Below, in pieces: positions 1 through 64,000 of a DNA stretch of 64,000 bases. How positions within the stretch are numbered: position 1 is the stretch's first letter; every line of letters begins with the position of its first letter. Below the pieces are notes generated by a model. It did not search any database and was not told where the DNA came from. It saw nothing but the letters and a program-made list of their open reading frames with translations. Origin of the DNA: an uncultured Actinomycetota bacterium (lineage in GTDB: Bacteria > Actinomycetota > Actinomycetes > Actinomycetales > Dermatophilaceae); assembly GCA_963745335.1 (NCBI GenBank), contig CAVUXP010000010.1, positions 8,459-72,458 of the forward strand, read 5' to 3'. A program made the translations under genes and the position numbers.

Positions 1-897
1 ACGAGCATCGCCCTGTCAGGCCCATGGTCGAGATCCGTCACGGGTCCGCTCATCGTCGTCTCCGGGGTGACGATGAGCGTGCTCGCCGTCGACGTCATGA
101 CCGGATCCCGCCTCCAGCTGTCCTCGCTCATGGGTCTCCAACCGGTCATCGCCGGCCGGTTCTACGGCATGGGCAACGTGACCTTCGCCCTCTTCGCGAC
201 CTCGGCCCTGTTCCTCGCCACCGGTCTGTCCTCCCTCGTCGTCCGGCAGAGCCGGACCCGGGCGGCGGCCATCGTCGCCATCATCGGCGGCGCGGCGGTC
301 ATCGTCGACGGCGCGCCGTTCTGGGGCGCCGACGGCGGCGGCCCCCCGGCCCTCGTCCCCGGCATCGCCTACTTCGTCCTCGCCGTCCTCGGGATCCGGA
401 TGACGATCCGCCGCGGGCTGCTCATCGCTCTCGGCTCCGTCCTGCTCTTCCTCACCATCGCGGTGATCGACTGGCTCCGCCCCCCGGAGCAGCGCAGCCA
501 CCTCGGCGCCTTCATCCAGGCGATCATCGACGGCAACGCCTCCGACATCGTCATCCGCAAGGCCCAGCAGAACTTCGAGATCCTCCACAGCAACATGCCA
601 CTCACCCTGCTCGTGCCGGCGGCGCTCATCTTCGTCTTCTACGTCCTCGCCCGGCCGACCTCCTGGGGGTCCCGGTCCCTCCACGGCTCGTTCGAGGCCG
701 TGCCGACCCTGCGCCCGGGGCTCGTCGCCGTCCTCGTCACGGTGACGATCGGCTTCGCCATCAACGACTCCGGCGTCGCGATCCCCGCCGTCGCCGCGAC
801 GGTCGGCGTCCCGCTCATCGTGTCGGTCGCCGTCCGCGTCCTCGAGGACGAGGCCCGGGCCACCGCCCCCACCCGGGCGACCCGGCGTCGCCGGTAG
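1..897 (+). CDS. integral membrane protein, C-terminal portion (gene starts upstream of window)
   Basis: Frame is open from base 1 to the stop at 895-897. Translation is a series of hydrophobic helices (GRFYGMGNVTFALFATSALFLATGL, LLFLTIAVIDWL, LVAVLVTVTIGFAINDSG). Strong G/C third-position bias. Confidence 0.6.
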   Translation, partial: TSIALSGPWSRSVTGPLIVVSGVTMSVLAVDVMTGSRLQLSSLMGLQPVIAGRFYGMGNVTFALFATSALFLATGLSSLVVRQSRTRAAAIVAIIGGAAVIVDGAPFWGADGGGPPALVPGIAYFVLAVLGIRMTIRRGLLIALGSVLLFLTIAVIDWLRPPEQRSHLGAFIQAIIDGNASDIVIRKAQQNFEILHSNMPLTLLVPAALIFVFYVLARPTSWGSRSLHGSFEAVPTLRPGLVAVLVTVTIGFAINDSGVAIPAVAATVGVPLIVSVAVRVLEDEARATAPTRATRRRR

Positions 898-966
898 GCC
901 CGGGCCACCATCCGGTATGCCGCGGCCTCGGGCCGCGCCGTGGCGGCGCCGGGTCGCGGTCCTCGG

Positions 967-1701
967 TCAGCGGCGGCGGAGGCGACGGGCGGTGAGGGCC
1001 AGCCAGACGTCGCGGTACTGCGCGGCGCGGTGCAGCTGGCTGCGCAGGTCGGTCCCGCTCACCCGGTGCTGCAGCTCGCACGGCACCTCGAGCACCCGCA
1101 GCCCCGCGGTGAGGACGTCGGTCGTCAGCCCGACCTCGACGCCCCAGCCGCGGGCCAAGGGCGAGGCCGCGGCGTACGCCTCGGCGGTGAGGCAGCGCAT
1201 CCCGGACAGGGGCTGCACGGGGCTGAACCCGGTGAGCCGCTCGATCCCGTCGCGGGCGAGACGGACGACGAACCCGTGCCCGCCGCCGGCGCTCGCCTGG
1301 GGCGGGAGCGTCGCGATCGTCATGTCGGCCTCACCGGCGGCAACCGGCGTGACGAGAACGGACAGGTTCGCGGCGGTCTCCTGGAGGTCCCCGTCGACGA
1401 AGAGGAGATGCCGGGGCGGGTGTCCCTCGCGGGCCTCCTCGGACCGGACCCGGACGACGCCGGTCTGCAGAGCCGCCGCCTTCCCCCGGTTGCGCGGGTG
1501 TCGGACGACGAGCGCGCCCGCCCGCTCGGCCACCGCCGCGGTGTCGTCCGTGCTCCCGTCGTCCACGACGACGACGAGGTCGACCTCGGGCAGGTCGCGC
1601 ACCGCCGCGATCGTCGCCTCGATCCGGTCGGCCTCGTCCTTGCACGGCACCACCGCCGCGACGCCCGGGTGGGGAGTCGGTGTGCTCGGCTGGTCGGGCA
1701 T
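967..1701 (-). CDS. family 2 glycosyltransferase
   Basis: ORF 967..1869 trimmed to the ATG at 1699-1701 (MPDQPST). GT-A motifs VVVDDGSTDDT, NRGKAAAL and FVDGD (DxD). Confidence 0.8.
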   Translation of the reverse strand: MPDQPSTPTPHPGVAAVVPCKDEADRIEATIAAVRDLPEVDLVVVVDDGSTDDTAAVAERAGALVVRHPRNRGKAAALQTGVVRVRSEEAREGHPPRHLLFVDGDLQETAANLSVLVTPVAAGEADMTIATLPPQASAGGGHGFVVRLARDGIERLTGFSPVQPLSGMRCLTAEAYAAASPLARGWGVEVGLTTDVLTAGLRVLEVPCELQHRVSGTDLRSQLHRAAQYRDVWLALTARRLRRR

Positions 1702-1709
1702 CGATGACC

Positions 1710-2603
1710 TCAGCGGAGGGTGACCTGGCGGCTCAGCAGCCCGGAACGGGCCCGGCGCTCCTCGGCGGTGAGGGGGGAGTCGGAGGCGAGGGCCGCGGCA
1801 TACCGGGTGCCCCACGCGGCAAGGGGCTCCTCGTAGTCCTCGGCCTCCAGCTCCGGGTCGAGGTCCCACACCGGGACGAGGAGCCCGCAGCTGCGGAACG
1901 CGCCGAGCAGCCGGGTGCCCTCACCGAGGCCGTCGTCGCCGGCCGCGTGGAGGCGAGCCAGCGCGTCGGTGGCCGCGTCCTCGTCGTCGGGCAGGACGAG
2001 CCGGACGTGGGTGCGGTCGCCGAGCCGGACCCAGTAGGCCGACGGGAGTGCCGCCAGCCGCACGGTCGGCACGACGGCCTCGTTGGCCCGTTCGAGCGAC
2101 TCCTGACCGTCCTCGTCGAGCTCCTGGCCCTCGACCCAGAAGTCGAAGCCGTCGTGGAGGACGACCTCGATCGGCGCCGAGGTGTCGATGAGGTCCTGCA
2201 ACCGGGGGGTCTGCGCCGTCGGCGGCGGAACGGTGACGAGCGGGGTGCCGGCCTCCAGCTCGGTCGTCGCGAGGATCTGCCCCGCGAGGTCACGGGAGGC
2301 GTCGCCGGACGACCCGCCGGACTGGGTGGCCACGAGGAGGGTGCCGTCGTTGCGGTGCAGCCCCGGCCAGGCGAGGGGCAGGACCGTCGTCACCGTCACC
2401 TCGGCGCCCTTCTCGGGGGCGGCCGGACCGACGAGGGTCACCGTCGCGGTCGCCGCCGGCAGGATCTCGCGGATGGCGACCCACTCGGTCTCGCCGGGCA
2501 GGCCCGCGAACGGACGGGGGTCGAAGCGGACCGGCTCGGGGCGCGTGCGCCGGGCAGCGGTCTGGCCGTCGGCGGAGCGACGGCGGCGAGAGGCCTTACC
2601 CAT
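1710..2603 (-). CDS. conserved actinobacterial protein, DUF5926-like
   Basis: MGKASRRRR basic N-terminus; EWVAIREILPAATA, LLVPVWDLD and C-terminal SRQVTLR match my memory of the DUF5926 family. ATG at 2601-2603. Confidence 0.6.
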   Translation of the reverse strand: MGKASRRRRSADGQTAARRTRPEPVRFDPRPFAGLPGETEWVAIREILPAATATVTLVGPAAPEKGAEVTVTTVLPLAWPGLHRNDGTLLVATQSGGSSGDASRDLAGQILATTELEAGTPLVTVPPPTAQTPRLQDLIDTSAPIEVVLHDGFDFWVEGQELDEDGQESLERANEAVVPTVRLAALPSAYWVRLGDRTHVRLVLPDDEDAATDALARLHAAGDDGLGEGTRLLGAFRSCGLLVPVWDLDPELEAEDYEEPLAAWGTRYAAALASDSPLTAEERRARSGLLSRQVTLR

Positions 2604-2705
2604 GACGACCACCCTAACGGGCTGCGGCGGGGCCCGATGCGCACCCGGCCGCCGGACGGGGGCGGTACCGGGACCGCTTCGCGACGGTGCGTGCGCCGAG
2701 GGCGC

Positions 2706-4685: not shown

Positions 4686-5267
4686 CCAACCCCCTCAGCG
4701 AAGCCTTCACCCCCGACGTCCACCCGCCCACGCTGCCGACGACCGACGTCTCCTACGTCCTCGAGGACACCGCCGTCGGCCGGATGCTCCTCGCCGTCAC
4801 GGCCGAGGGGGCACTGGTCGCCAGCGCGTATGCCCCCGACACCACCGCCGAGGACACCGTGCTCCAGCGGCTCGCCGACCGGGTCAGCCCGCGGGTCCTG
4901 CGTCACGCGGGGCCGCTGGACGGGGCGCGGCGCGAGCTCGCGGCATACCTGGCTGGCCGGACGCGGACCCTCGACCATCGCACCGACCTCGCCCTCGCCG
5001 GCCCGTTCCAGCGCGAGGTTCTCACGACGCTCGCGGAGACCGTCCGCTTCGGCGAGCGCACGACGTACGGCGCGCTGGCCGCCGCGGCCGAGCATCCCGG
5101 CGCGTCGAGGGCGGTCGGCACCGCCCTCGGCCACAACCCGCTGTGCATCTTCGTCGCGTGCCACCGGGTGCTCCCGGCCGGCGCGCCGGGAGGGCGGCGA
5201 CGTGGGCGGGTATGCCGGGGGCCCGGCCGCCAAGGCCTTCCTCCTCGCGCTCGAGCAGCGGCGCTAG
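4682..5267 (+). pseudogene. ogt: methylated-DNA-protein-cysteine methyltransferase (Ogt), frame-shifted as assembled
   Basis: The N-terminal part lies in the frame of ORF 3986..6778 (MTNPLSEAF ... GHNPLCIFVACHRVL). The C-terminal GGYAGGPAAKAFLLALEQRR* lies in the frame of ORF 4830..5267. Span length is 586 nt (not a multiple of 3), with the shift near 5175-5192. Confidence 0.8.
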
Positions 5268-6706
5268 CCGGTCCTCGGCGGCGGGACCTCGTCGAGCGCG
5301 CCGCGCGCCTCGAGCTCGGCGACCAGCCGCGCGTGCATCGTCTCGTCGATGACGAACTTCGCCCGCCAGATGAGGTATCCGACGACGACACACGCTGCCG
5401 GGATGACCATCATCGCGACCTTGACGATGGCGATGCCCCCGCTCGTCATGTCCGCCGGCCCGGAGGCGTCGTTGATGCCGGACAGGATCGCCGCGGCCCC
5501 GACGATGGCGGTGTTCATGGCGCCCGAGGTCTTGTTGATGAAGGGCTGGAGCGCGAAGGTGACGGCGTTGTTGCGCTGGCCGAGCTTGACCTGTCCGTAC
5601 TCGATCGTGTCCGCCTGGAAGACGATCATGAGCAGCTGGATGACGGCCGCCGCGAGGAAGAGCGAGAAGGCGGCGATGCCGAGGACGAGGAGGTTCATCG
5701 GCGCGACGATGAACAGTGCATACGACGCGAGGGCGACGACGGTGGCGATCGTGTAGAGCCGGCCCCGCCGCCACCGCTTGCTGAACCAGGGGAAGAGGGC
5801 GAAGCCGGCGAGCTGCCCCACGCCGACGAAGACCGCGAAGAGCGGGAAGACGCCCTCGTCGCCGTAGACGTACTTGAAGAAGTAGAGCCCGAAGGCGCCG
5901 GTCGTGCCGTAGCCGACCATGAAGAGCAGGTATGCCGTGGCCGTCCAGAGCAGCTGGTCGTTGCGGAACAGGGCGCGCGCCAGCTCGCGGAGCCCGGTGG
6001 GCGCGCCGCTGAGGTCGACCCCCCGCGGCTCGCGCACGCCGAGGACGGTCACCGCCATGCCGAGGAGCATGACGACGACGATGGCGACGGCCGCGAGCTG
6101 GAAGGCCCGGGTGGCGCTGCCGGTCGCGGAGGTGAGGGCGTCCGTCAGCGGGACGATCCCGGCGACGACCGCGAACTGGCCGATGCTGGCGAAGATCTTG
6201 GCCACCGAACCGAGGTCCTCGCGCTCCGTCGGGTTGAGCGACAGGGCGGGCAGCTGGGACCAGTAGGGGATGTCGTGCGCCGTCCAGCTGATCCCCCACA
6301 GCAGGTTGAGGACCGCGAAGACGGCGACGAACGACGTGCCGCTGAGACCGGAGTCGGTGAAGAGGACGACGGTGAGCAGGGCCGACGCGAGACCGCCGAC
6401 GACGAGCCACGGCTTGAACTGGCCCCACCGGGAGCGGGTGCTGTCGACGACCGCCCCCATGACCGGGTCGAGGAGCGCGTCGACGATGCGGATCGCGAGC
6501 AGCAGGCCGGTGATCCACCACATCGTCGAGTTGGGGACGTTGACGATGTCGGTGAGGTAGTAGATGAGGTAGAGCGAGACGAGGGCGTAGACCATGTCGC
6601 GTCCGAGGGTGCCGACGCCGAAGGTCCACCGGTTGCGGGCGAACTCCGCCGTGCGCGTTGCGCTCGCGGGGAGCGGCTCCGGAACCGCGGCCGTCGTCTC
6701 GCTCAT
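5264..6706 (-). CDS. glycoside-pentoside-hexuronide (GPH) family cation symporter
   Basis: ORF 5264..7228 trimmed to ATG 6704-6706 (MSETTAAV). Twelve-helix profile with LDPVMGAVVDSTRSRWGQFKPW, typical of MelB/YicJ-type carriers. Confidence 0.85.
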   Translation of the reverse strand: MSETTAAVPEPLPASATRTAEFARNRWTFGVGTLGRDMVYALVSLYLIYYLTDIVNVPNSTMWWITGLLLAIRIVDALLDPVMGAVVDSTRSRWGQFKPWLVVGGLASALLTVVLFTDSGLSGTSFVAVFAVLNLLWGISWTAHDIPYWSQLPALSLNPTEREDLGSVAKIFASIGQFAVVAGIVPLTDALTSATGSATRAFQLAAVAIVVVMLLGMAVTVLGVREPRGVDLSGAPTGLRELARALFRNDQLLWTATAYLLFMVGYGTTGAFGLYFFKYVYGDEGVFPLFAVFVGVGQLAGFALFPWFSKRWRRGRLYTIATVVALASYALFIVAPMNLLVLGIAAFSLFLAAAVIQLLMIVFQADTIEYGQVKLGQRNNAVTFALQPFINKTSGAMNTAIVGAAAILSGINDASGPADMTSGGIAIVKVAMMVIPAACVVVGYLIWRAKFVIDETMHARLVAELEARGALDEVPPPRTG

Positions 6707-6824
6707 GGCGGCATACTCCTCCACCCCATCGGCCCGGCGATAGTGCCGCACGGCGGCACCGACGACATCGCCGGGTAGGCGTCGCACCCCCACGGACGGC
6801 GCGGCGCGGCATCCTCCGTCGGGT

Positions 6825-7752: not shown

Positions 7753-10460
7753 GTGTCGGATGCACCCATACCTCGCCCGCCGAGCAAGTCCGACGGTCGT
7801 CGCGACGAGGCGCCCAGCGTCGCCGCCATGCGGTCCACCACCGAGACCATGGCGGCCCGCCCGCCGATGGGGCCGGACGACGAGAGCCTGCGCCGGGCCG
7901 AGACATCGGCCGTCGTGGCCGAGATGCACATGGGGGTGCGGGGGGCATGGAGCATCGCCGGCTTCGCCGGTCTGCTCGTCGTGCTCGCCCTCATGCGCAC
8001 CAGCGGCATCCTCCCGGTCGGGAGCGCGGCGACCGACGATCCGGCGGCAAGCCCCTGGCCGCGCAGTACCCTCGCGCTGGTCCTCCTCGTCGTGGGCGCC
8101 CAGGTGGTCATGCTCCTCATCGTCGCCGAGCACTGGGTCGGCCCGGCGCTCGCCACGACGACGCCGCAGGCATCCCTTTCCGCGGCGATGGCGGTGCGGC
8201 GTCGATTCGCCCGACCCGACGGTCAGCCCGTCACGCCGGAGCCCTGGACCGAGAGCTACCGCGTCGGCTCGGCCGAACTCGAACGACTGCGTCGCCACAC
8301 CCGCTACCTGTTCGAACCGGCGATCCGGCTGCGGGACGGCGCGGTGACCTCCTGCTCGGAGCCGGCCTCAACGTCGTCGTCGTCGGCATCGTCCTGCTCG
8401 GGCTGACCTGGGTCAGCGTGTTGCTGGCCGTCGTCTTCGGGGTCGTCACCCCGGAGCGCGATCCGGTGGTTGTCTCCGGCAGCCCGAACACCGGCTACTC
8501 GGACCCGGGGCCCATCATCGCCTTGCACGTCGCCCAGGGGTGGGGGGTCGGACAGTGGGTGGCGCTGCTCTCCGTGGCCGGCGTCGCGCTGCTCGTCGTC
8601 GGGGCGATGACGATCGCCGCGTGGCGTGAGGCACGGGTGTTCGACCAGGCCGACCCCGACGACGAACGACGGCGTCAGGCGACGAGCCGGATGGACCTCG
8701 TCCAGCGGTGGCGCCCGCACGTCCTGGCCGCCGGCGCCATCTGGCTCCTCCTCTCCTTCGCCCTTCCGGCCGGTGCCGTCGGAGTCGTGTCGCTCACGAC
8801 CCACAACCAGCCGATGGCCAGCGTCGGCGGGGCCCTGCACGCGCTGGGCTTCGGCTCACACGACATGTGCTCCGCCGCCTTCCGGGACAGCGTGGAGGCC
8901 GCCGCCCTCCAGGCGTCGACCGAGGCCCGGATCAGCCCCAACGAGACGCGCACGGCGACGGCGGGGGCCTGCGGCTTCGAGACGACCGTGGCCCGCACCC
9001 TCGACACCCAGGGCGACAGCGATCCCGCCAACGACGTGCTGCCCGACACCGGCCGGATCGACCTGGGCTGGCAGCCGAGCGGCGCGCTGCAGATCGGCGG
9101 GATCTGGGCCCTGCTGGCAGCGATCGTCGGGATGCTCCGCCGGGGCCCGACGCCGGAGACGCAAGCGGCCGACAGCCGGACGGATCGGCTCAAGCGCACG
9201 CTGCTCACCTGGCTCCCGCTCACGCTCGCGGGGCTCGTGGCGGCATACCTCCTGCTGTTGTGGACCTTCCACTACCTCATCGAGCTCCCTGGGCGGGGAC
9301 GCACTCCTTCGTCGCGTGGACCGCTGGGCTGCTCGCACTGGCCTGTGTCCTGTGCTACCTCGTCGACGCGAACGCGACGTCGATGCACGGCTTCTACCGA
9401 GCTCGGCTGGCCGACGCGTTCTGTGTCGGCGTCGATCCGTCGGGGGCTGCCGGCCCGCTGCCGGCGCGCCGGGTCTACCGCTTCTCCGAGCTGGGTGGGG
9501 TGCGCCTCAACATCGTCGCGACTCTCAACTCGCGCTACCCGAACGAGGCACCGACGATGCGCGGGGGCTTCCCGCTCGTCTTCTCCTCGGACGGGATCCT
9601 CGTGGCCCGTGAGGAGCGGCGCACGTACCGCGTCGACATGGCGCGCTTCGAGGACTACGCAGGTCCCGGCCGCTCCTCGGTCATGGCGGCCGTCGCCGTG
9701 AGCGGTGCGGCCATCTCGCCGCTGATGGGGCGGTTCGGCGTCCAGATGGCTCCGTACCGGATCCTCCTGACCCTGCTCAACCTGCGCGTCGGAACCTGGG
9801 TCCGCAACCCGCTGCACGCGCGCGCGATCGACCCCGACGAGCCTCGCGCGGCCCCCGCCCCGGAGGGCTGGCTCTGGCTGACGAGCAAGCCGGGTCTCGC
9901 CCAGATCGCCACCGAGGCGGCCGGGGCGTCGTCGGCGAACCGACGATGGGTCTATCTCAGCGATGGAGGCCACCTCGACAACACCGGCCTCGTGGAGTGC
10001 GTGCGGCACTGCGTCTGCCTCGGTCGCGGGGGACGGATCGTCGTCCTCGACGCGAGCAACGACCCTCCGGGCACCTGGTCGGCCGTGGGTGACGCCATCG
10101 CCGTGATCCGGGCCGACCTCGACATCGACCTGCAGCGCCGTCCCGTCGTGCCCGACGACGTCGATGCGCCGCCGCCGCCGTGGGCGCGCAGGTACGTCGG
10201 CGGCGGCCTCGAGGTCCTCGTCGTCAAGGCGGTGAGGGTCGAGCGCGCCGGCCCCGGACGCCGCCGCGGGAACGGTGGACTGGACCGCCCCGCTGCCGCC
10301 CAACGTCCAGTCCTTCCAGCTCACCAACAAGGACTTCCCCCGGGCGTCGACCGCGCGGCAGAAGTTCGGCGACCTCGAGTTCGAGGCCTACCGGGGCCTG
10401 GGGTATGCCGCGACCCGGGCCGCCCTGCTCTCGGCGGGTTGGGTGTCGCCGGACCCCTGA
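7753..10460 (+). pseudogene. large membrane protein with a patatin/cPLA2-like C-terminal region, spread over four frames as assembled
   Basis: Coding-like text runs through ORF 7753..8406, then the frame of 7563..9701 (from about 8340), then the frame of 8708..10486 (from about 9290), then ORF 10275..10460. Motifs: MHGFYRARLADAF, AVSGAAISPLMG, YLSDGGHLDNTGL, FPRASTARQKFGDLEFEAYRGLG. Confidence 0.55.
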
Positions 10461-49182: not shown

Positions 49183-49208
49183 GGATCGCTCGACGCTGAC
49201 ACGCGCCC

Positions 49209-56843: not shown

Positions 56844-57761
56844 TCAGGCGGGGGCCGAACCCAGCCCGTCGACGAACTCGGCGACGATCGCGGCGAACCG
56901 CTCCGGCTGGTCCTCCTGGACGAAATGACCGGCGCCCTCGATGACCGTGTGCGCCCGGCCCTGCGCGCCGGGGATCTTCGACTGCATCCACCGGTCGCCG
57001 CCCCGGGTGATCGGGTCGCCGTCGCTGAACGCGGTGAGGAAGGGCACGTCGAGGGTGGCCAGCCGCTCCCACGCGGCCCGGTTGGCGGGGGTGGCGGGGT
57101 CGTCGGGGGTGTTGGGGACGAGGTCGGGGAAGACCCGGATCCCGGCGCAGAAGGACTCGTCGGGGAACGGCGCGGCATACGCGGCGAGCTCGTCCTCGGC
57201 GAGGGGGCGGCGGCAGCCGGAGGCGACCATCCGCGCGACGTCGAGCCGTGGCGCGGTGCGGACCATCTCGCGGAAGAGCTGCCACTCCTGGGGCATCGGG
57301 ACGTCGCCGGTCGGCAGGCCGGTGTTCGACATGACGACCCCGGCGAAGCGGTCGGGGTGCTCGGCGAGCAGTCGCATCCCGATGAGCCCGCCCCAGTCCT
57401 GCCCGACGTAGTGGATGTCGGTCAGCCCGAGGCCGTCGAACAGTCCCGCGCGCAGCCACTCGACGTGCGCGGCATACGAGTAGTCCGCGCGGTCGGTCGG
57501 CTTGTCGGACCGGCCGCACCCGATGAGGTCGGGCACGACGACGCGCAGCCCGGCGGCGACGAGCGGCGGGATCATCCGGCGGTAGAGGTAGCCCCACGTC
57601 GGCTCGCCGTGGACGAGGACGACGACCGGCCCGTCGGCGGGCCCCGCGGTGACGTGGGCCATCCGGAGCCCGCTGGCCGGGTCGGCGTCGACCCAGCCGG
57701 GTTCGTGGTCGAACCCCTCGACGACGTCGAACCGCTCGGCCGGGGTGCGCATGATGTCCAT
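56844..57761 (-). CDS. haloalkane dehalogenase-type alpha/beta hydrolase
   Basis: VLVHGEPTWGYLYR, nucleophile elbow VGQDWGG, C-terminal GAGHFVQED. Start at MDIMRTPAERF. Confidence 0.85.
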   Translation of the reverse strand: MDIMRTPAERFDVVEGFDHEPGWVDADPASGLRMAHVTAGPADGPVVVLVHGEPTWGYLYRRMIPPLVAAGLRVVVPDLIGCGRSDKPTDRADYSYAAHVEWLRAGLFDGLGLTDIHYVGQDWGGLIGMRLLAEHPDRFAGVVMSNTGLPTGDVPMPQEWQLFREMVRTAPRLDVARMVASGCRRPLAEDELAAYAAPFPDESFCAGIRVFPDLVPNTPDDPATPANRAAWERLATLDVPFLTAFSDGDPITRGGDRWMQSKIPGAQGRAHTVIEGAGHFVQEDQPERFAAIVAEFVDGLGSAPA

Positions 57762-57969
57762 CCGGGCAGTATGCCGCTCCACCGCTCCCCCGCTCGCCCC
57801 GGCAGTCCCGGCAGTCCCGGCAGTCCCGCCCCGGCGGGCGAGCCGCGGCCGCGGCGGTCACGGCCGCGGCGGCTGGGCCGTCGCCGCGGGAGTCGCCGCA
57901 GAGTCGCCGCGGGCGTCGGCCCGGCCCGGACCGCGCGTCGGCGTGACAGCGGCCGGTGCGACGGCTGTA

Positions 57970-58318: not shown

Positions 58319-59179
58319 CTACTTGAGGAACTTGCTCGTCCGGCGATCCGCGAGGGGCTTGCCGCCCGTCTGGCACGTCGCGCAGTACTGCAGCGAGGAG
58401 TCGGCGAAGGACACCTCACGCACGACGTCACCGCACACGGGGCACGTCTCGCCGGTGCGCCCGTGCACCCGCATCCCCGCCCGCTTGGCGTCCTTGAGCT
58501 CCTTCGCCGGCTTGCCCGACGCGGCGGCGACGGCGGTGGTCAGCGTCTGGCGGAGCGCGGCATACAGGCTCTGGACGACCTCGGCCGGGAGCGTGTCGGC
58601 GATGGCGAACGGCGAGAGCCGGGCCGCGTGGAGGATCTCGTCGGAGTAGGCGTTGCCGATGCCGGCGATCGTCGACTGGTCGCGCAGGACGCCCTTGATC
58701 TGCGCGCGCCGTCCGGCGAGGATCCCGGCGAACGCCTCCTCGGTGAAGCCGTCGGCGAGCGGGTCGGGCCCGAGCGAGGCGATGCCCGGCACCTCCTGGG
58801 GGTCGGCGACGATGTATGCCGCGAGCCGCTTCTTCGTCCCCGCCTCCGTGAGGTCGAAGCCCGACCCGTCGGAGAAGCGCACTCGCATCGCGATGGGGGA
58901 CTTGCCCGGTCGGAGCATCGCCGTCGACACCTGGTCCGACCACCGCAACCATCCCGCTCGGGCGAGATGGAAGACGAGATGCGTTCCGCCGCAGTCGATG
59001 TCGAGGAACTTGCCGAACCGGGCGACGCCCTCGACGGGGGCCCCGACGAGCGCCTGCGGCGGCGGGTTGAAGGTCTTGAGCACCGAGATCGAGCCGATCT
59101 CGGCCCCGGTCACGGCCAGCCCGGAGGTCCGCTCGGCGAGGAAGTCGGCGAGGGCCTGCACCTCGGGCAGCTCGGGCAT
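58319..59179 (-). CDS. Fpg/Nei family DNA glycosylase/AP lyase
   Basis: MPELPEV catalytic N-terminus, H2TH IKGVLRDQSTIAGIGNAYSDEILH, and zinc finger CPVCG...CATC. Confidence 0.9.
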   Translation of the reverse strand: MPELPEVQALADFLAERTSGLAVTGAEIGSISVLKTFNPPPQALVGAPVEGVARFGKFLDIDCGGTHLVFHLARAGWLRWSDQVSTAMLRPGKSPIAMRVRFSDGSGFDLTEAGTKKRLAAYIVADPQEVPGIASLGPDPLADGFTEEAFAGILAGRRAQIKGVLRDQSTIAGIGNAYSDEILHAARLSPFAIADTLPAEVVQSLYAALRQTLTTAVAAASGKPAKELKDAKRAGMRVHGRTGETCPVCGDVVREVSFADSSLQYCATCQTGGKPLADRRTSKFLK

Positions 59180-60325: not shown

Positions 60326-60492
60326 ACCGGAACTCTAGACAACCGGCCCGACCCCCGCGGCCCCTCGCCGCAACCGCCCCCATCGCTCGACCGCCCGCCG
60401 GGACGCGGAAGCCGCCCGTCGCCGGAGAACCTCCCCGGCGGACGACAACCGTCCCGTGCGTCCCTCCCGGCCCCCGTGCTTGAGTGGGTGGT

Positions 60493-61260
60493 ATGCCGCC
60501 CACCTACCGCAAGTCCTCCACCCACGTCCCACCGGGCTACTTCGCCTGGGAGGCGGCCGGGCTGCGCTGGCTCTCGGCCGCGAACGGCGCCCCGGCCGTC
60601 GGGGTCGTCGAGGTCGGCGACCACCACCTCGACCTCGTCCGGCTCGACGACGCGTCCCCCGACGCTGGCCACGCCGAGGCCCTGGGGCGCGGGCTGGCCC
60701 GCACCCACGACGCCGGGGCCGCGGCATACGGTGTCCCGCCGGACGGCTGGGAGGGCGACGGGTACCTCGGACCGCTGAGCGAGCCGCTGCCGCTCCCCCT
60801 CGAGCCCACCCCGACGTGGCGCGCCTTCTATGCCGAGCAGCGGATCCGGTTCACGGCCCGCCTCGGCCGCGACCGCGGCACCTACGACGCCGACGACATC
60901 GCCGCCTTCGAGCGGGTGGCGACGCGGCTCGAGGCGGGCGACCTCGACGAGCCCGAGCCGCCGGCACGGCTGCATGGCGACCTGTGGAGCGGAAACGTCA
61001 TGTGGACCCGCGACGGCGCCGTCCTCATCGACCCCGCGGCCCACGGTGGCCACCGGGAGACCGACCTCGCGATGCTTGCCCTCTTCGGCTGCCCGGGCCT
61101 GGAGCGGGTGCTCGCCGCCTACGACGAGGCCCACCCCCTCGCGGAGGGCTGGCGCGACCGGGTCCGGCTGCACCAGCTCCATCCGCTGATGATGCACGCG
61201 GTCCTGTTCGGCGGCGGCTACGTCCGGCAGAGCCTCGCGGTCGCCGACCACTACTCCTGA
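60493..61260 (+). CDS. fructosamine kinase family protein
   Basis: FAWEAAGLRWL ... RLHGDLWSGNVMW ... LIDPAAHGGHRETDLAML. GTG 60484 is an alternative start. Confidence 0.85.
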   Translation: MPPTYRKSSTHVPPGYFAWEAAGLRWLSAANGAPAVGVVEVGDHHLDLVRLDDASPDAGHAEALGRGLARTHDAGAAAYGVPPDGWEGDGYLGPLSEPLPLPLEPTPTWRAFYAEQRIRFTARLGRDRGTYDADDIAAFERVATRLEAGDLDEPEPPARLHGDLWSGNVMWTRDGAVLIDPAAHGGHRETDLAMLALFGCPGLERVLAAYDEAHPLAEGWRDRVRLHQLHPLMMHAVLFGGGYVRQSLAVADHYS

Positions 61261-61422: not shown

Positions 61423-62955
61423 ATGCAGCTCGCTGACCTCGTTGCGGCGACGACGGCCCTCGCCGCGACCCGGTCCCGCACGGCCAAGACCGCCGTCCTC
61501 GCCGAGCTGATGGCCGCGATGAGCCCGGACGAGGCCGAGGCCGCCGTCGGCATCCTCCTCGGCCGGCCGCGGCAGGGCCGGATCGGGATCGGCTGGCGCA
61601 CCCTGTATGCCGTCCGCGAGTCCGGCGAGGCGCCGCCCGCAGCGGGGCCCACGCTCACCGTCGCCGACGTCGACACCGCCCTCGTCCGGATCGTCGCCGC
61701 CGCCGGTCCCGGCTCGGCGGGCACCCGGCATACCGAGCTGGTCGGCCTGCTCGCCCGCGCCACGGAGGCGGAGCAGGACCTCCTCGGCCGGGCCCTCACC
61801 GGCGAGGTGCGCACCGGCGCCCTCGACGGTCTCGTCACCGACGCGCTCGCCCGCGCCGTCGACCGCCCGGTCGCCGAGGTCCGCCGGGCCGTCATGCTGA
61901 GCGGCACTCTCGGCGGCACGGTCCGGGCCGCCCTCGCCGATCCCGCGTCGCTCGCCGAGGTCGGCCTCGCCGTCGGCACGCCCGTCCAACCGATGCTCGC
62001 CTCGACCGCCACCGGTGTCGCGGCCGCCATCGCGACGACCGGGCGGGCCTCCGTCGAGTACAAGCTCGACGGCGCCCGGATCCAGGTCCACCGTCGCGGC
62101 GACGACGTCGGCGTCTACACCCGCAGCCTCGCCGACATCACCGGCCGGGTCCCCGAGATCGTCGAGGTCGCCCGCTCGCTCCCGGTCCACGAGGCCATCC
62201 TCGACGGCGAGACCCTGTCCCTCGACGAGGCCGGAGCGCCGCGACCGTTCCAGGAGACGATGAGCCGGTTCGGCGCGGAGGCCGCCCGCGAGGTGCTCCT
62301 CGCGCCGTGGTTCTTCGACGTCCTCCACGTCGACGGCGCCGACCTCATCGACCGGCCGCTGTCCGAGCGTCTCGAGGTCCTCGCCCGGATCGCCCCCGCG
62401 CACCGGATGCCCGGGCGGGTGACCGACGATCCCGAGGTCGCGCAACGGGTCATGGACGACGCCCTCGCCGCCGGGCACGAAGGCGTCGTCGTCAAGGACG
62501 TCGACTCCCCGTATGCCGCGGGCCGACGCGGCAAGAGCTGGGTCAAGGTCAAGCCCGTCCACACCTACGACCTCGTCGTCCTCGCCGCCGAGTGGGGCTC
62601 GGGGCGACGCCGGGGATGGCTGTCCAACCTCCACCTCGGCGCCGCGGACCCCGCGGGCGTCGCCGGGGAACCGGGCGGGTTCGTCATGGTGGGCAAGACC
62701 TTCAAGGGGCTCACCGACGAGACACTGCGCTGGCAGACCGAGACCTTCCCCGGCTACGAGGTGCGCAGCACCCGGCAGGCGCTGTTCCTCCGGCCCGAGA
62801 TCGTCGTCGAGATCGCGATCGACGGGGTGCAGCGGTCGAGCCGCTACCCCGGCGGCCTGGCCCTGCGCTTCGCCCGGGTCAAGCGGTACCGCCCGGACAA
62901 GTCCGCCGCCGAGGCCGACCGGATCGAGACCCTCCAGGCGATGCTCCGCAGCTGA
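61423..62955 (+). CDS. ligB: ATP-dependent DNA ligase (LigB type)
   Basis: Adenylation motif SVEYKLDGARIQVH, GHEGVVVKD, SWVKVKP, and the OB-fold tail LRFARVKRYRPDK. ATG 61423 within ORF 61303..62955. Confidence 0.9.
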   Translation: MQLADLVAATTALAATRSRTAKTAVLAELMAAMSPDEAEAAVGILLGRPRQGRIGIGWRTLYAVRESGEAPPAAGPTLTVADVDTALVRIVAAAGPGSAGTRHTELVGLLARATEAEQDLLGRALTGEVRTGALDGLVTDALARAVDRPVAEVRRAVMLSGTLGGTVRAALADPASLAEVGLAVGTPVQPMLASTATGVAAAIATTGRASVEYKLDGARIQVHRRGDDVGVYTRSLADITGRVPEIVEVARSLPVHEAILDGETLSLDEAGAPRPFQETMSRFGAEAAREVLLAPWFFDVLHVDGADLIDRPLSERLEVLARIAPAHRMPGRVTDDPEVAQRVMDDALAAGHEGVVVKDVDSPYAAGRRGKSWVKVKPVHTYDLVVLAAEWGSGRRRGWLSNLHLGAADPAGVAGEPGGFVMVGKTFKGLTDETLRWQTETFPGYEVRSTRQALFLRPEIVVEIAIDGVQRSSRYPGGLALRFARVKRYRPDKSAAEADRIETLQAMLRS

Positions 62956-63007
62956 GGAGGGTCGACACCCTCGCCGGCACCCACGGCATACCGGCGATAC
63001 TGGGCCG

Positions 63008-63700
63008 ATGAGCGAACGGATCACGGTTCCCACGTCCGACGGCCCGATGCCCGCCCAGCTGTGGCGTCCCGAGTCCGGCAGCGGGCCCGGTCTGCTCCTC
63101 GTCCAGGAGATCTTCGGCGTCAGCGCCTACATCCGGCAGCGCGCCGAGGACCTGGCGGCCCTCGGCTACGTCGTCCTCGCCCCGGAGCTGTTCTGGCGGC
63201 TCGGCGTCTCGGAGGTCCCGGCGGGGCCGGACATGCTCCAGGAGGGCATGGGCCTGGCCGGCCGGTTCGACTGGGAGAAGGGCGTCACCGACAGCGTCTC
63301 CGCCCTCTCCGCGCTGCGTGACCTGCCCGAGGTGACCGGCGAGGTCGGGGTGATCGGCTTCTGCTTCGGCGGCGGGATGGGCTTCAACGTCGCGGCCGTC
63401 GACGACCCCGCCGTGCTCGTGTCCTACTACGGCTCGGCGCTGCCCGGCCTGCTCGACCTCGCCCCGCAGGTGACCTGCCCGAGCCTGCACCACTTCGGGC
63501 TCGACGACGCCTACATCGGGGGGTCGACCCTCTCGGCGATCACCGACGCCATCACGCCGCAGGGCGCGGTCGTCGAGACCTACGAGGGCGCCGACCACGC
63601 GTTCGACAACCCGGACTTCGTCAACTTCCACGGCCCCGCGTCCGGAACAGCCTGGGAGCGGACGACGACCTTCCTCGCCGAGCACCTCCCCACCGGCTGA
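63008..63700 (+). CDS. dienelactone hydrolase family protein
   Basis: GLLLVQEIFGVSAYIRQ ... VIGFCFGGG ... GADHAFDNP. Confidence 0.85.
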   Translation: MSERITVPTSDGPMPAQLWRPESGSGPGLLLVQEIFGVSAYIRQRAEDLAALGYVVLAPELFWRLGVSEVPAGPDMLQEGMGLAGRFDWEKGVTDSVSALSALRDLPEVTGEVGVIGFCFGGGMGFNVAAVDDPAVLVSYYGSALPGLLDLAPQVTCPSLHHFGLDDAYIGGSTLSAITDAITPQGAVVETYEGADHAFDNPDFVNFHGPASGTAWERTTTFLAEHLPTG

Positions 63701-63742
63701 ACCGCCCCCCGCTCCCCGCACGCCCCGCTCCGCTCCCCCCCT

Positions 63743-63803
63743 GCAGGAACCTCTGCTAGCAGAGGTTCCTGCCGAACGGGGGTGTTGCAGCATGCCCGTT
63801 CGG
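63743..63803. repeat. 30-bp perfect palindrome followed by a second hairpin
   Basis: GCAGGAACCTCTGCTAGCAGAGGTTCCTGC (63743-63772), then CCGAACGGG-14 nt-CCCGTTCGG (63772-63803), 43 nt after the hydrolase stop. Confidence 0.7.
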
Positions 63804-63815
63804 CAGCAACCTGTC

Positions 63816-63958
63816 CGCCGATGGGCGGGGCGTCGGGCGGCGTCGGGCGGGCGTCGGGCGGTCGCCGACGGGCGGGGCGTCGGGCGGGCGTCGGGCGGGC
63901 GCCGACGGGCGGGGCGTCGGGCGGGCGTCGGGCGGTCGCCGATGGGCGGGGCGACGGG
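63816..63958. repeat. G-rich compound tandem repeat (units of about 37-47 bp, x3-4)
   Basis: CGCCGA(T/C)GGGCGGGGCGTCGGGCGGGCGTCGGGCGG(T)... repeated, with nested GGCGTCGGGCG sub-repeats. It runs towards the window edge. Confidence 0.75.
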
Positions 63959-64000
63959 AGCGGAGGCCCACGGGACACTCGACGGGCCGCCGATGGTCGC

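What the first reader, a model, noticed from the sequence alone, without database searches (positions are those of the whole stretch)
1..64000. Octamer CGGCATAC / GTATGCCG occurs about once per kb and forces rare codons
By eye I count just over 60 copies, split about evenly between strands (roughly 32 versus 31). Approximate positions include 914, 1796, 4941, 5209, 5929, 9239, 10402, 12354, 16143, 20700, 20715, 25467, 25487, 29021, 31901, 35862, 40009, 52201, 57173 and 62511. A zero-order model, assuming about 72% G+C, predicts only about 2 copies. In coding DNA it nearly always spells Ala-Tyr as GCA-TAC or Tyr-Ala as TAT-GCC. GCA and TAT look rare elsewhere in this G/C3-biased sequence. The expected spelling GTACGCCG/CGGCGTAC was seen only at about 1176 and 20801, plus CTACGCCG at 15594. 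A few copies lie in other frames (CGG-CAT-ACx giving Arg-His-Thr five times; GTA-TGC giving Val-Cys twice). Several are non-coding (914, 6708, 11688, 17743, 36713, 50498). Only one copy (46808) lies in 41.5-49.2 kb. The lack of strand skew argues against a Chi- or KOPS-type polar signal. I see three hypotheses. (a) Systematic C-to-T miscalling of a methylated TACGCCG-type motif, in line with the homopolymer indels. (b) A real mutational footprint of deamination at a methylated site, retained mainly where it is synonymous. (c) A HIP1-like selected genomic word. At 20715 the motif T is the first base of a Cys codon in the ADH C-x2-C-x2-C-x7-C zinc site, so at least that copy must be genuine.
Basis: partly seen in the sequence, partly recalled or inferred. 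Interest (0 to 1): 0.75.

Follow-up and report, generated by a model that had tools for sequence, protein, structure and literature searches.

The report
Clade-specific hyper-abundant genomic octamer CGGCATAC
The 8-base word CGGCATAC occurs about once per kilobase on both strands of this actinobacterial DNA and of its relatives (Knoellia, Janibacter, Lapillicoccus); it is a genuine, actively maintained genomic "signature word" of the same kind as DNA-uptake sequences or the cyanobacterial HIP1 octamer, in a bacterial group where I could find no report of one.

Summary
There are 62 exact copies (32 on +, 30 on -), against about 1 expected from dinucleotide shuffles. A codon-aware null gives 38 observed versus 2.4 in called genes.

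It is not a basecalling artefact. Independently sequenced Knoellia (4 species), Janibacter sp. HTCC2649, Lapillicoccus and two MAGs carry it at 0.6-1.0 per kb. Microbacterium, Agromyces, Arthrobacter and Leifsonia do not. It is not a single-site deamination scar either: copies arise by changes at positions 5, 6, 7 and 8, including amino-acid changes.

The octamer itself is the unit kept:
- Identity is 94% inside the 8 bp and 81-82% immediately outside.
- Orthologous retention is 74-100%, against 23-38% for any 8-mer.
- It fills about 54% of synonymously possible sites.
- It has no strand skew and Poisson spacing.
- It is depleted in a lower-GC island at 41-49 kb.

Related lineages carry "dialects": CCGCATAC, CGGCATCC(G), CAGCATCC(G), CGGATCCG. 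The Microbacterium dialect also reaches host density, unoriented, in one small lytic phage cluster.

Best reading: a lineage-specific recognition word for an unidentified DNA-binding activity that works in either orientation, probably inside the cell (HIP1-like class). A DUS/USS-like uptake tag is the main rival. Chi/KOPS membership fails. The mechanism is unresolved.

The parts
915..922 (-). motif copy; G-TAT-GCC-G context, frame call uncertain (probably intergenic or gene edge)
1796..1803 (+). motif copy; Tyr-Ala (G-TAT-GCC-G) in a - strand gene
4941..4948 (+). motif copy; Ala-Tyr (CG-GCA-TAC)
5210..5217 (-). motif copy; Ala-Tyr, frame call borderline
5930..5937 (-). motif copy; Ala-Tyr in MFS transporter gene
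6709..6716 (+). motif copy; Tyr-Ala context near the 5' end of the MFS gene
9241..9248 (+). motif copy; frame call uncertain
10403..10410 (-). motif copy; Tyr-Ala
11687..11694 (+). motif copy; no coding periodicity, probably intergenic
11878..11885 (-). motif copy; Tyr-Ala in amino-acid permease gene
12354..12361 (+). motif copy; Ala-Tyr in amino-acid permease gene
14541..14548 (-). motif copy; frame call uncertain
16144..16151 (-). motif copy; Ala-Tyr
16514..16521 (+). motif copy; Tyr-Ala
17733..17740 (+). motif copy; frame call uncertain, probably non-coding
20700..20707 (+). motif copy; Arg-His-Thr (CGG-CAT-ACC) in zinc ADH, just before the structural zinc site
20715..20722 (-). motif copy; Val-Cys-Arg (GTA-TGC-CGC); its TGC is Cys119 of the C-x2-C-x2-C-x7-C zinc site; inverted partner of the copy at 20700
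21787..21794 (+). motif copy; Tyr-Ala
21845..21852 (-). motif copy; Ala-Tyr
25458..25465 (+). motif copy; Tyr-Ala
25479..25486 (+). motif copy; Tyr-Ala (direct pair with the copy at 25458)
26070..26077 (-). motif copy; frame call uncertain
27374..27381 (+). motif copy; Tyr-Ala
27775..27782 (+). motif copy; Tyr-Ala
28402..28409 (-). motif copy; Ala-Tyr
29022..29029 (-). motif copy; Tyr-Ala in AlaDH/PNT-domain gene
29131..29138 (+). motif copy; Arg-His-Thr in AlaDH/PNT-domain gene
29874..29881 (-). motif copy; frame call uncertain
30808..30815 (-). motif copy; frame call uncertain
31902..31909 (-). motif copy; Ala-Tyr
32291..32298 (+). motif copy; Tyr-Ala
33725..33732 (-). motif copy; frame call uncertain
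34189..34196 (+). motif copy; Tyr-Ala
35852..35859 (+). motif copy; Ala-Tyr in CLC channel gene
36018..36025 (-). motif copy; Tyr-Ala in CLC channel gene
36715..36722 (-). motif copy; frame call uncertain, probably non-coding
37651..37658 (+). motif copy; Tyr-Ala
38813..38820 (+). motif copy; Ala-Tyr
39049..39056 (-). motif copy; Val-Cys-Arg
39348..39355 (-). motif copy; Tyr-Ala
40009..40016 (+). motif copy; Ala-Tyr
40832..40839 (+). motif copy; Arg-His-Thr in sulfotransferase-family gene
41194..41201 (-). motif copy; Tyr-Ala; last copy before the motif-poor island
41202..49432 (.). motif-poor, lower-GC (about 0.71) accessory island holding a glyoxalase-like gene, an AfsR/SARP-type regulator (apparently frameshifted), a cupin and an FAD monooxygenase; 1 copy where 9.0 are expected
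   Evidence: (Poisson P = 0.0012)
46809..46816 (-). motif copy; Ala-Tyr; the only copy inside the island
49433..49440 (+). motif copy; Tyr-Ala in AAA_16 ATPase gene
50497..50504 (+). motif copy; no coding periodicity, probably intergenic
51059..51066 (-). motif copy; CGG-CAT-ACC context
52203..52210 (-). motif copy; Tyr-Ala in VTT-domain gene
52524..52531 (-). motif copy; frame call uncertain
52619..52626 (+). motif copy; frame call uncertain
54525..54532 (+). motif copy; Tyr-Ala
57173..57180 (+). motif copy; Tyr-Ala in alpha/beta hydrolase gene
57470..57477 (+). motif copy; Tyr-Ala in alpha/beta hydrolase gene
57769..57776 (-). motif copy; frame call uncertain (gene start region)
58558..58565 (+). 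motif copy; Tyr-Ala
58814..58821 (-). motif copy; Ala-Tyr
60491..60498 (-). motif copy; frame call uncertain (gene boundary)
60722..60729 (+). motif copy; Ala-Tyr
61605..61612 (-). motif copy; Tyr-Ala in ATP-dependent DNA ligase; unique to this genome (its closest relative has LVAV where this genome has LYAV)
61726..61733 (+). motif copy; Arg-His-Thr in ligase; shared with the closest MAG (L001) only
62511..62518 (-). motif copy; Tyr-Ala at a conserved YAAG site of ligase; outgroups use CCC-TAC-GCC, and the L068 lineage uses its own dialect, G-TAT-GCG-G
62984..62991 (+). motif copy; frame call uncertain

Best explanation
CGGCATAC is a lineage-specific genomic signature word. It is an 8-bp duplex site, read as a whole and in either orientation by an as-yet unidentified sequence-specific DNA-binding activity of this Intrasporangiaceae-like clade.

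Shown:
- Copies arise by ordinary point substitutions wherever only one or two changes are needed. These are mostly synonymous (GCN to GCA, TAC to TAT), but some change amino acids.
- Once formed, copies are retained far better than the surrounding sequence.
- As a result, all long-resident DNA settles at about 1 copy per kb on both strands, and recently acquired DNA lags behind.
- Related lineages have shifted to neighbouring words ('dialects').

Inferred:
- The dialects imply a recognition protein whose specificity evolves in single-base steps.
I consider a cell-surface DNA-uptake receptor less likely.
For: Real and large:
- 62 copies against about 1 expected.
- The codon-aware null gives 38 observed against 2.4.

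Clade-wide:
- 201 copies in 236.5 kb of nine ingroup loci, against 19 in 837 kb of outgroup loci, a 37-fold difference.

The whole word is the target:
- Identity is 0.94 inside the 8 bp and 0.81-0.82 in the adjacent flanks, which equals background.
- Orthologous retention is 74-100% within Knoellia/Janibacter, against 23-38% for arbitrary 8-mers.
- Where a copy is not conserved, the aligned octamer differs at position 5, 6, 7 or 8.

Strong force:
- 56/103 Y-A-(G..) sites and 36/67 [SPTA]-A-Y sites carry the word, against 9/277 and 5/190 in outgroups.
- YA/AY dipeptides and their flanking residues are inflated.
- Amino-acid changes created some copies.

Orientation-independent and unstructured:
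- 98:103 over nine loci; spacing CV is 0.89-1.0, as expected for random placement.

Lags in accessory DNA:
- 1 copy against 9.0 expected in the lower-GC island.

Dialects:
- CCGCATAC in a second Lapillicoccus MAG, including at the same YAAG codon site.
- ACGGCATAC preference in Knoellia.
- CGGCATCC(G), CAGCATCC(G), YGGCATCC and CGGATCCG in Microbacteriaceae, in the same reading frames and with the same rare-codon behaviour.

Intracellular rather than uptake:
- The Microbacterium dialect reaches host density (12-14 copies against 0.8-1.7 expected), in both orientations, in strictly lytic cluster EE phages. These phages have no replication or recombination genes and so depend on host machinery.
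- Six larger Microbacterium phages with their own replication or recombination genes are at the level of a negative control.
Against: - No reader protein, methylation data or functional assay is available.
- No methyltransferase, repair or competence gene is linked to the word in the window.
- The phage argument rests on a sister word in another family and on a single phage cluster. That cluster could instead descend from a long-resident chromosomal element.
- Phage TJE1 of a Tetrasphaera host has chance-level counts, but that host's dialect is unknown.
- HIP1, the nearest analogue, is palindromic. Its own mechanism is unsettled, and recent work links it to transformation, so 'HIP1-like' and 'uptake-like' may not be exclusive.
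- Only about 0.24 Mb of ingroup DNA was examined, not whole genomes.
Confidence: 0.45

Rival explanations
1. DNA-uptake (or DNA-transfer) specificity sequence, like the neisserial DUS or the Pasteurellaceae USS. A surface or translocation receptor prefers DNA carrying the word. Transformation and recombination then spread word-creating mutations through the population by molecular drive.
For: - The genomic signature matches well: a short non-palindromic word at about 1 per kb, with equal strands.
- The excess is extreme.
- It sits in coding DNA at the cost of rare codons and some amino-acid changes.
- Lineage-specific dialects exist.
- Copies are conserved at orthologous sites.
- It is depleted in an accessory island. 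Depletion of DUS is used to find mobile elements in Neisseriaceae (PMC7371117, title and abstract).
Against: - The sister word is at full host density in strictly lytic cluster EE Microbacterium phages, which cannot benefit from chromosomal transformation drive.
- I found no report of uptake specificity in any actinobacterium.
- Natural competence of these genera is unknown to me.
- There is no flanking halo of elevated identity around copies that would suggest recent import tracts.
Confidence: 0.22
2. An orientation-independent protective or 'self' tag that is needed in cis by DNA relying on host machinery. Examples would be a site that attenuates a host nuclease or defence system, or one that recruits a host replication or nucleoid factor. 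It would be maintained by selection on each replicon. This is a more specific version of the best explanation, and its probability partly overlaps with it.
For: - Only the phage cluster without its own replication or recombination genes carries the host word, and it does so at host density.
- Constraint falls sharply on the 8 bp, as for a protein-binding site.
- The word is depleted in newly acquired DNA.
Against: - Per-site selection would have to beat codon preference at more than half of all accessible sites, which is a lot for one site among thousands.
- I know of no such orientation-free tag.
- No defence genes are associated with the word in the window.
Confidence: 0.15
3. A Chi-like regulator of a helicase-nuclease (RecBCD, AddAB or AdnAB), or a KOPS/SRS-like guide for a DNA translocase.
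For: - It is an over-represented, non-palindromic 8-mer with lineage-specific variants.
- Phages that lack recombinases are the ones that carry it. This pattern is known for Chi in lambdoid phages (PMC3784561).
Against: - There is no strand skew in any of nine loci: 98:103 overall and 32:30 in the window.
- In cluster EE phages the sister word is unoriented (9:5, 7:7, 5:4). Real Chi-rich phages have 20 of 23 or 32 of 32 sites in the active orientation (PMC12315714).
- The excess (37- to 60-fold, overriding codon preference) is far larger than I would expect for Chi (my own knowledge).
Confidence: 0.04
4. A mutational footprint of deamination at a methylated cytosine in GTACGCCG, or VSP-type single-position repair bias.
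For: - The commonest single alternative at orthologous sites is CGGCGTAC (7 of 49 non-conserved comparisons).
- GCG-TAC is under-used in the ingroup.
Against: - The natural pool of CGGCGTAC is far too small: its sister word CGGCCTAC occurs 7 times, and GCGTAC has only 10 copies in all.
- Gains also occur at positions 6, 7 and 8, and by transversions.
- Copies are positively retained.
- Dialects differ at positions unrelated to a CpG.
Confidence: 0.02
5. A sequencing, basecalling or adapter artefact.
For: - The window shows signs of indel errors: a split AfsR-like gene, and only about 59% of the window in clean ORFs.
- The word is a substring of the Illumina P7 adapter (my own knowledge).
Against: - The word has the same density in independently produced assemblies of isolates from several genera.
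- It is conserved at orthologous codons.
- One copy encodes an essential Cys codon.
- No copy extends the adapter match beyond chance.
Confidence: 0.01

Closest known systems
HIP1 (highly iterated palindrome 1, GCGATCGC) of cyanobacteria
   Same: - Both are exact octamers present about once per kb, mostly inside genes.
- Both are built by nucleotide substitutions.
- Both are by far the most over-represented 8-mer of the genome, and both have lineage-specific replacement words.
- In both, the cause is unknown and is debated between methyltransferase/repair-linked fixation and a role in DNA transfer (PMC4390886; bioRxiv 10.64898/2026.06.24.733823).
   Different: - HIP1 is a palindrome that overlaps the sites of two known orphan methyltransferases. 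CGGCATAC is asymmetric and no methyltransferase is known for it.
- The phylum differs (Actinomycetota).
- The composition context differs: here it is an A/T-containing word in 74% G+C DNA that forces rare codons.
DNA uptake sequences: DUS of Neisseriaceae and USS of Pasteurellaceae
   Same: - Both are non-palindromic short words at about 1 per kb, with equal numbers on both strands.
- Both have dialects between related lineages.
- Both are conserved at orthologous positions and are depleted in mobile or accessory DNA.
- Both have a measurable effect on protein sequences.
   Different: - No competence, uptake bias or receptor is known for these actinobacteria.
- The word is 8 bp with no flanking preference.
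- The sister dialect is found at host density in a strictly lytic phage cluster, which an uptake drive does not predict.
Chi (crossover hotspot instigator) sites and KOPS/SRS polar octamers
   Same: - All are over-represented, asymmetric words of about 8 bp that differ between lineages and mark 'self' DNA.
- Chi is enriched in phages that lack their own recombinases (PMC3784561).
   Different: - Those signals are polar and skewed with replication, and are strongly oriented in phages (PMC12315714). This word is unskewed in chromosome and phage alike.
- Its excess is much larger.

Membership tests
DUS/USS DNA uptake sequences | Short asymmetric word, hundreds- to thousands-fold more copies than chance, about 1 per kb, equal on both strands | tested here: met
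   62 copies against 0.93 expected. The strand split is 32:30 in the window and 98:103 over nine loci.
DUS/USS DNA uptake sequences | Lineage-specific dialects that share a core | tested here: met
   CGGCATAC, ACGGCATAC, CCGCATAC, CGGCATCC(G), CAGCATCC(G) and CGGATCCG occur in different Micrococcales lineages.
DUS/USS DNA uptake sequences | Under-represented in mobile or recently acquired DNA | tested here: inconclusive
   One lower-GC island has 1 copy against 9 expected. Against that, cluster EE lytic phages carry the sister word at host density.
DUS/USS DNA uptake sequences | Competent cells preferentially take up DNA carrying the word, through a specific receptor | not testable with these tools
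   This needs uptake or transformation assays. I found no literature on uptake specificity in Actinobacteria.
HIP1-type highly iterated octamers | Exact octamer that is the most over-represented 8-mer, about 1 per kb, largely intragenic, spread by substitutions | tested here: met
   It is the top word in an unbiased order-3 Markov scan of the window and of 8 relatives. Copies are gained by point substitutions.
HIP1-type highly iterated octamers | Palindromic | tested here: not met
   CGGCATAC is not its own reverse complement. Only the CGGATCCG dialect of some Microbacterium is palindromic.
HIP1-type highly iterated octamers | Contains the target sites of conserved (orphan) DNA methyltransferases | not testable with these tools
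   No methylome data or whole genomes are available. No methyltransferase gene was found in the window.
Chi sites | Orientation bias co-directional with replication | tested here: not met
   The split is 32:30 in 64 kb, and every one of nine loci is near 1:1.
Chi sites | Strongly oriented in phages that depend on it | tested here: not met
   The sister word in BurtonThePup is split 9:5, 7:7 and 5:4, whereas published Chi-rich phages have 20 of 23 and 32 of 32 in one orientation.
Chi sites | Recognised by RecBCD/AddAB-type helicase-nuclease | not testable with these tools
   This needs a biochemical assay.
KOPS/SRS/AIMS polar words | Strand skew that switches at origin and terminus | tested here: not met
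   No skew was found locally. Whole-genome switching could not be tested.
Methylation-deamination or VSP footprint | Change confined to one C/T position of a methylated site | tested here: not met
   Orthologous alternatives differ at positions 5, 6, 7 and 8, including transversions.
Basecalling artefact at a methylated motif | Absent from independently produced assemblies of related strains | tested here: not met
   The word is present at 0.6-1.0 per kb in Knoellia (4 species), Janibacter sp. HTCC2649 and Lapillicoccus.

The most novel reading that the evidence does not exclude
Micrococcales (Actinomycetota) may possess a previously unrecognised, order-wide system of fast-evolving 8-9 bp 'self' words, each read in either orientation by an unknown intracellular machine.
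- One possibility is a DNA-repair or anti-nuclease discrimination signal in a phylum that lacks MutS/MutL.
- Another is a new kind of replicon 'licence' that host-dependent phages must copy.

On this reading, CGGCATAC is the dialect of the Knoellia/Janibacter/Lapillicoccus clade.
Probability: 0.2. Interest if true: 0.9.

Novelty: new variant of a known kind. Interest (0 to 1): 0.78.

Why it matters
To my knowledge, hyper-abundant genomic words have been established in only a few groups: DUS in Neisseriaceae, USS in Pasteurellaceae and HIP1 in cyanobacteria. Each has become a handle on DNA exchange, self/non-self discrimination and genome evolution.

This would be a new case, in Gram-positive, high-G+C Actinobacteria. 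It has:
- a very clean signal, about 54% occupancy of accessible sites against rare-codon cost;
- a set of dialects that switch even within genera;
- a natural experiment in phages, where one host-dependent lytic cluster carries the word and the others do not.

Together these make the reader protein findable by phylogenetic profiling, and the function testable in culturable hosts such as Microbacterium foliorum and its cluster EE phages, or Janibacter and Knoellia.

There are also practical uses:
- The word is a sharp marker for recently acquired DNA.
- It could support binning and host assignment in metagenomes.
- It is a warning for codon-usage and dN/dS analyses in these genomes.

Tried and rejected
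Literature:
- Searches for the word itself return only primer and adapter hits. From my own knowledge, CGGCATAC is part of the Illumina P7 adapter.
- Nine further searches on uptake sequences, Chi, over-represented octamers and the sister word found no description of this phenomenon.

Database look-ups that gave nothing useful:
- The look-up of encoding contigs with the ADH and ligase proteins found no exact record.
- A viral-contig scan for close inverted pairs of the word returned only chance hairpins in mid-GC contigs and no dense carrier.
- Tetrasphaera phage TJE1 is at chance level, but its host's dialect is unknown, so this is uninformative.
- A plasmid search with the ADH protein found no Intrasporangiaceae plasmid. 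A Frondihabitans plasmid segment shows no clear word and has no chromosomal baseline.

Ideas tested and dropped:
- The apparent 2-3.5-fold 'mild enrichment' of the sister word in larger Microbacterium phages was rejected. An Arthrobacter phage whose host lacks the word scores the same on that baseline.
- The Bobay-type Chi interpretation of the phage pattern was rejected, because the sites are unoriented.
- A flanking conservation halo, which would suggest tract-wise repair or recent conversion, was looked for and not found.
- Regular (quasi-periodic) spacing was looked for and not found.
- PADLOC found no defence genes in the island.

Rejected by reasoning only:
- A primase initiation site or an RNA-level or translation-level signal, because both strands and several reading frames are used equally.

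Full report
**1. The observation**

The window is 73.7% G+C. CGGCATAC occurs exactly 62 times, 32 on the + strand and 30 on the - strand. Expectations under several nulls are far lower:
- Dinucleotide-preserving shuffles give a mean of 0.93 and a maximum of 4.
- Markov models of order 1-3 give 0.9-3.4.
- A codon-aware null shuffles synonymous codons while keeping every protein and the overall codon usage. It gives 2.4 +/- 1.6 (maximum 7 in 500 shuffles) against 38 observed in the GC3-supported coding segments. For five isolate loci it gives 4.1 against 55. This null is conservative, because it keeps the rare codons and dipeptides that the word itself contributes.

The word is a sharp 8-mer:
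- Flanking positions show only background composition.
- 62 of the 66 GCATAC hexamers are preceded by CG.
- The sister words CGGCGTAC (3 copies) and CGGCCTAC (7 copies) are at ordinary levels.

| Context | All 62 copies | 45 confident frame calls |
|---|---|---|
| G-TAT-GCC-G (Tyr-Ala) | 27 | 25 |
| CG-GCA-TAC (Ala-Tyr) | 18 | 13 |
| CGG-CAT-ACx (Arg-His-Thr) | 7 | 5 |
| GTA-TGC-CGx (Val-Cys-Arg) | 6 | 2 |
| Other | 4 | 0 |

TAT and GCA are indeed rare codons. TAT is 39 of 207 Tyr codons, 18 of them inside the word, and GCA is 78 of 1766 Ala codons.

The copy at 20715 supplies Cys119 of the C-x2-C-x2-C-x7-C structural zinc site of an alcohol dehydrogenase.

Only one copy lies between 41194 and 49433. 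That is 1 against 9.0 expected (Poisson P = 0.0012). This stretch has lower G+C, about 0.71 against 0.74-0.76. It encodes accessory functions: a glyoxalase-like protein, an AfsR/SARP-type regulator, a cupin and an FAD monooxygenase. No defence genes were detected there.

**2. It is not an artefact; it is clade-wide**

I used the window's ATP-dependent DNA ligase to fetch 80 related loci from species-representative genomes. The closest is an uncultured Actinomycetota MAG at 81% amino-acid identity, followed by Knoellia, Janibacter and Lapillicoccus at 64-71%.

Counts of the word per locus of about 21.5 kb:

| Locus | Copies |
|---|---|
| Closest MAG (L001) | 20 |
| Knoellia aerolata DSM 18566 | 15 |
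| K. pratensis | 20 |
| Two further Knoellia strains | 19 and 18 |
| Janibacter sp. HTCC2649 | 13 |
| A Lapillicoccus MAG | 21 |
| A second MFD MAG | 13 |
| Every Microbacterium, Agromyces, Arthrobacter, Pseudarthrobacter, Sinomonas and Leifsonia locus | 0-3 |

Pooled, the ingroup has 201 copies in 236.5 kb. G+C-matched outgroups have 19 in 837 kb, a 37-fold difference.

These are independent assemblies of cultured isolates. From my own knowledge, they were made with different technologies (HTCC2649 is a mid-2000s Sanger-era draft). A nanopore-type miscall therefore cannot explain the word.

An adapter origin was also checked. The word lies within the Illumina P7 adapter (my own knowledge), but no copy extends that match beyond chance.

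**3. What kind of force maintains it**

*(a) The whole word is the target.* I used pairwise alignments of syntenic DNA.
- A copy in one species is an exact copy in the other in 74-100% of cases within Knoellia/Janibacter. The figure for arbitrary 8-mer windows in the same alignments is 23-38%.
- For the window against its closest MAG, the figures are 52% and 20%.
- Averaged over 118 sites, identity is 0.94 inside the 8 bp and 0.81-0.82 in the six bases on either side. That equals the background of 0.81. There is no flanking halo.

*(b) Copies are gained by several routes.*
- Where a copy is not conserved, the aligned octamers are CGGCGTAC (7), CGGCATCC (6), CGGCACAC (5), CGGCATGC (4), CGGCATGG (4), CGGCCTAC (3) and others. 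The differences fall at positions 5, 6, 7 and 8 and include transversions.
- In the ligase gene, a conserved YAAG site reads CCC-TAC-GCC in outgroups and CCG-TAT-GCC-G in the ingroup.
- Other copies needed amino-acid changes: PAH to PAY in Knoellia/Janibacter, and LVAV to LYAV in the window.
- This rules out a one-position deamination or VSP-type footprint.

*(c) The force is strong.*
- 56 of 103 Tyr-Ala-(G..) sites and 36 of 67 [Ser/Pro/Thr/Ala]-Ala-Tyr sites carry the word in the ingroup. In outgroups the figures are 9 of 277 and 5 of 190.
- YA and AY dipeptides are inflated: observed/expected is 1.12 and 1.21, against 0.89 and 0.91 in outgroups.
- 75% of YA dipeptides are followed by a G-starting codon, against 42% in outgroups.

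*(d) It is orientation-free and unpatterned.*
- The strand split is 98:103 over nine loci, and no locus departs from 1:1.
- The spacing CV is 1.00, or 0.89 outside the island. The random expectation is 0.98, and 27% of random placements are as regular or more so.
- Close pairs are no more frequent than chance.

**4. Dialects**

A second Lapillicoccus MAG (L068) has no CGGCATAC. It has 6 CCGCATAC in 7.3 kb, and all nine of its GCATAC hexamers are preceded by C. At the conserved YAAG ligase site it uses CTG-TAT-GCG-G, which is its own word.

I ran an unbiased order-3 Markov scan for the most over-represented octamer in every locus:

| Lineage | Top word(s) |
|---|---|
| Window and all eight ingroup loci | CGGCATAC (Knoellia prefers ACGGCATAC) |
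| Most Microbacterium and Agromyces loci | CGGCATCC / GGCATCCG, i.e. (C)GGCATCC(G), at 0.6-1.7 per kb on both strands |
| Two Microbacterium loci | CAGCATCC(G) |
| Several Microbacterium loci, in addition | TGGCATCC |
| The M. azadirachtae group | the palindrome CGGATCCG, 28-56 per 21.5 kb |

The Microbacteriaceae word sits in the same frames as the window's word. G-GAT-GCC-G (Asp-Ala with the rare GAT codon) occurs 133 times and CG-GCA-TCC (with the rare GCA codon) 66 times. I therefore treat these words as one phenomenon, with lineage-specific recognition.

**5. Phages as a natural experiment (sister word only)**

Accession numbers and gene content come from Jacobs-Sera et al. 2020 (PMC7302621).

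- Cluster EE phages are about 17 kb and strictly lytic, with no replication or recombination genes.
- BurtonThePup has 14 CGGCATCC (1.7 expected), 14 GGCATCCG (0.9 expected) and 9 copies of the 9-mer (0.5 expected). Both orientations are interspersed along the genome, at host-like density (0.5-0.8 per kb) and in the same frames.
- The divergent EE member HarperAnne has 12 and 11 copies. It shares 19 sites with BurtonThePup, and 7 sites are lineage-specific.
- Six larger Microbacterium phages encode their own polymerases, recombinases or exonucleases: Percival, MementoMori, Hyperion, Goodman, Zeta1847 and AlexAdler. They score only 2-3.5 times the Markov baseline.
- That is the same score as the Arthrobacter phage Herb, whose host clade lacks the word (8 copies against 2.6 expected). 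The larger phages are therefore not enriched.
- Tetrasphaera phage TJE1 has chance-level CGGCATAC, but its host's dialect is unknown.

'Only phages without their own recombination functions carry the host word' recalls the pattern for Chi in lambdoid phages (PMC3784561). But genuine Chi-rich phages have 20 of 23 or 32 of 32 sites in one orientation (PMC12315714). The EE phages are unoriented, so the Chi reading fails there too.

The EE result is hard to reconcile with a drive that works only through uptake and recombination of chromosomal DNA. It is easier to reconcile with something that acts on, or is required by, DNA that depends on host machinery. The caveats are that this rests on one phage cluster and a sister word, and that EE phages could descend from a long-resident chromosomal element.

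**6. Interpretation**

Shown:
- There is a real, clade-specific, whole-word-constrained, orientation-independent octamer at about 1 per kb.
- It is built by substitutions at a measurable cost to codon usage and protein sequence.
- It lags in accessory DNA.
- Neighbouring lineages use neighbouring words.

Inferred:
- A sequence-specific DNA-binding protein reads the duplex word, and its specificity drifts in single-base steps.
- I rank an intracellular reader of the HIP1-like class first (0.45). This could be methyltransferase- or repair-linked biased fixation, or a cis-acting site needed by host-dependent replicons.
- A DUS/USS-like uptake tag comes second (0.22).
- An explicitly protective 'self' tag is a sub-variant (0.15).
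- Chi/KOPS (0.04), a deamination footprint (0.02) and an artefact (0.01) are effectively excluded by the tests above.

HIP1's own mechanism is unsettled, and recent work ties it to transformation. The first two readings may therefore converge.

**7. Novelty**

Ten full-text searches found no description of this word, of its sister words, or of any uptake-, HIP- or Chi-type signature in Micrococcales. A 2010 survey of abundant oligonucleotides does not mention it in its main text. I therefore file it as a new variant of a known kind of feature, the hyper-abundant genomic signature word. Its mechanism is unresolved and possibly new.

**8. Limits**

- Only about 0.24 Mb of ingroup DNA, from one genomic neighbourhood plus the window, was available. 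Whole-genome distribution and replichore-scale skew are untested.
- Gene calls in the window are approximate, because the assembly seems to carry frameshifts. Frames were therefore assigned from local GC1/2/3 periodicity, and 17 of the 62 calls are marked uncertain.
- No methylation, binding or uptake data exist.

Noticed in passing
window 44312-47645 (- strand): An AfsR/SARP-type regulator is split into two overlapping ORFs in different frames: BTAD + Trans_reg_C at 46248-47645, and AAA_16/STAND/TPR at 44312-46438. This is probably a frameshift from an assembly indel.
   Followed up: partly
window 20700-20722: Two motif copies in inverted orientation, 7 bases apart (CGGCATACCtgcgGGTATGCCG), form a potential 9-bp hairpin inside the ADH zinc-site coding region. 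Close pairs overall are no more frequent than chance.
   Followed up: partly
L005, L011, L013, L024, L040 and most other Microbacterium/Agromyces loci: The sister word (C)GGCATCC(G) occurs at 0.6-1.7 per kb on both strands, in G-GAT-GCC-G and CG-GCA-TCC frames with rare codons. Variants are CAGCATCC(G) in L062 and L076, and TGGCATCC in L040, L052, L058 and L064.
   Followed up: partly
L020, L026, L053 (Microbacterium sp. 8M and M. azadirachtae strains): The palindrome CGGATCCG occurs 28-56 times per 21.5 kb (6-13 expected) and replaces CGGCATCC as the top word. It may be a palindromic dialect containing GGATCC/GATC.
   Followed up: no
L015, L025, L033-L035, L038, L046, L047, L070, L074 (Arthrobacter, Pseudarthrobacter and Paenarthrobacter): CGACGGCG is the top octamer, at 17-31 copies per 21.5 kb against 3-8 expected. 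It contains only G and C, so it may be a codon effect rather than a dialect.
   Followed up: no
L030 (Agromyces sp. H66) and L037 (Sinomonas flava): The cyanobacterial HIP1 octamer GCGATCGC is itself over-represented: 26 copies against 7.3 expected, and 18 against 3.8.
   Followed up: no
L022, L027 (Microbacterium spp.): CTCGCTCA, CTGAGCGA and GAGACGAA/AGACGAAG each occur 15-25 times against 1-2 expected. These are probably parts of one longer dispersed or tandem repeat.
   Followed up: no
L206 (phage BurtonThePup) and L202 (phage Percival): There are phage-specific repeated words. BurtonThePup has the palindrome GACATGTC 16 times (1.3 expected). Percival has GTGTAAAC/CGTTTACA 13-14 times (0.3-0.4 expected). 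These are probably regulatory repeats.
   Followed up: no
window, all copies: From my own knowledge, CGGCATAC is a substring of the Illumina P7 adapter (CAAGCAGAAGACGGCATACGAGAT). This explains why literature searches for the word return only primer and adapter hits. Around the genomic copies, the longest contiguous match to the adapter is 12 nt (one copy), as expected by chance.
   Followed up: yes
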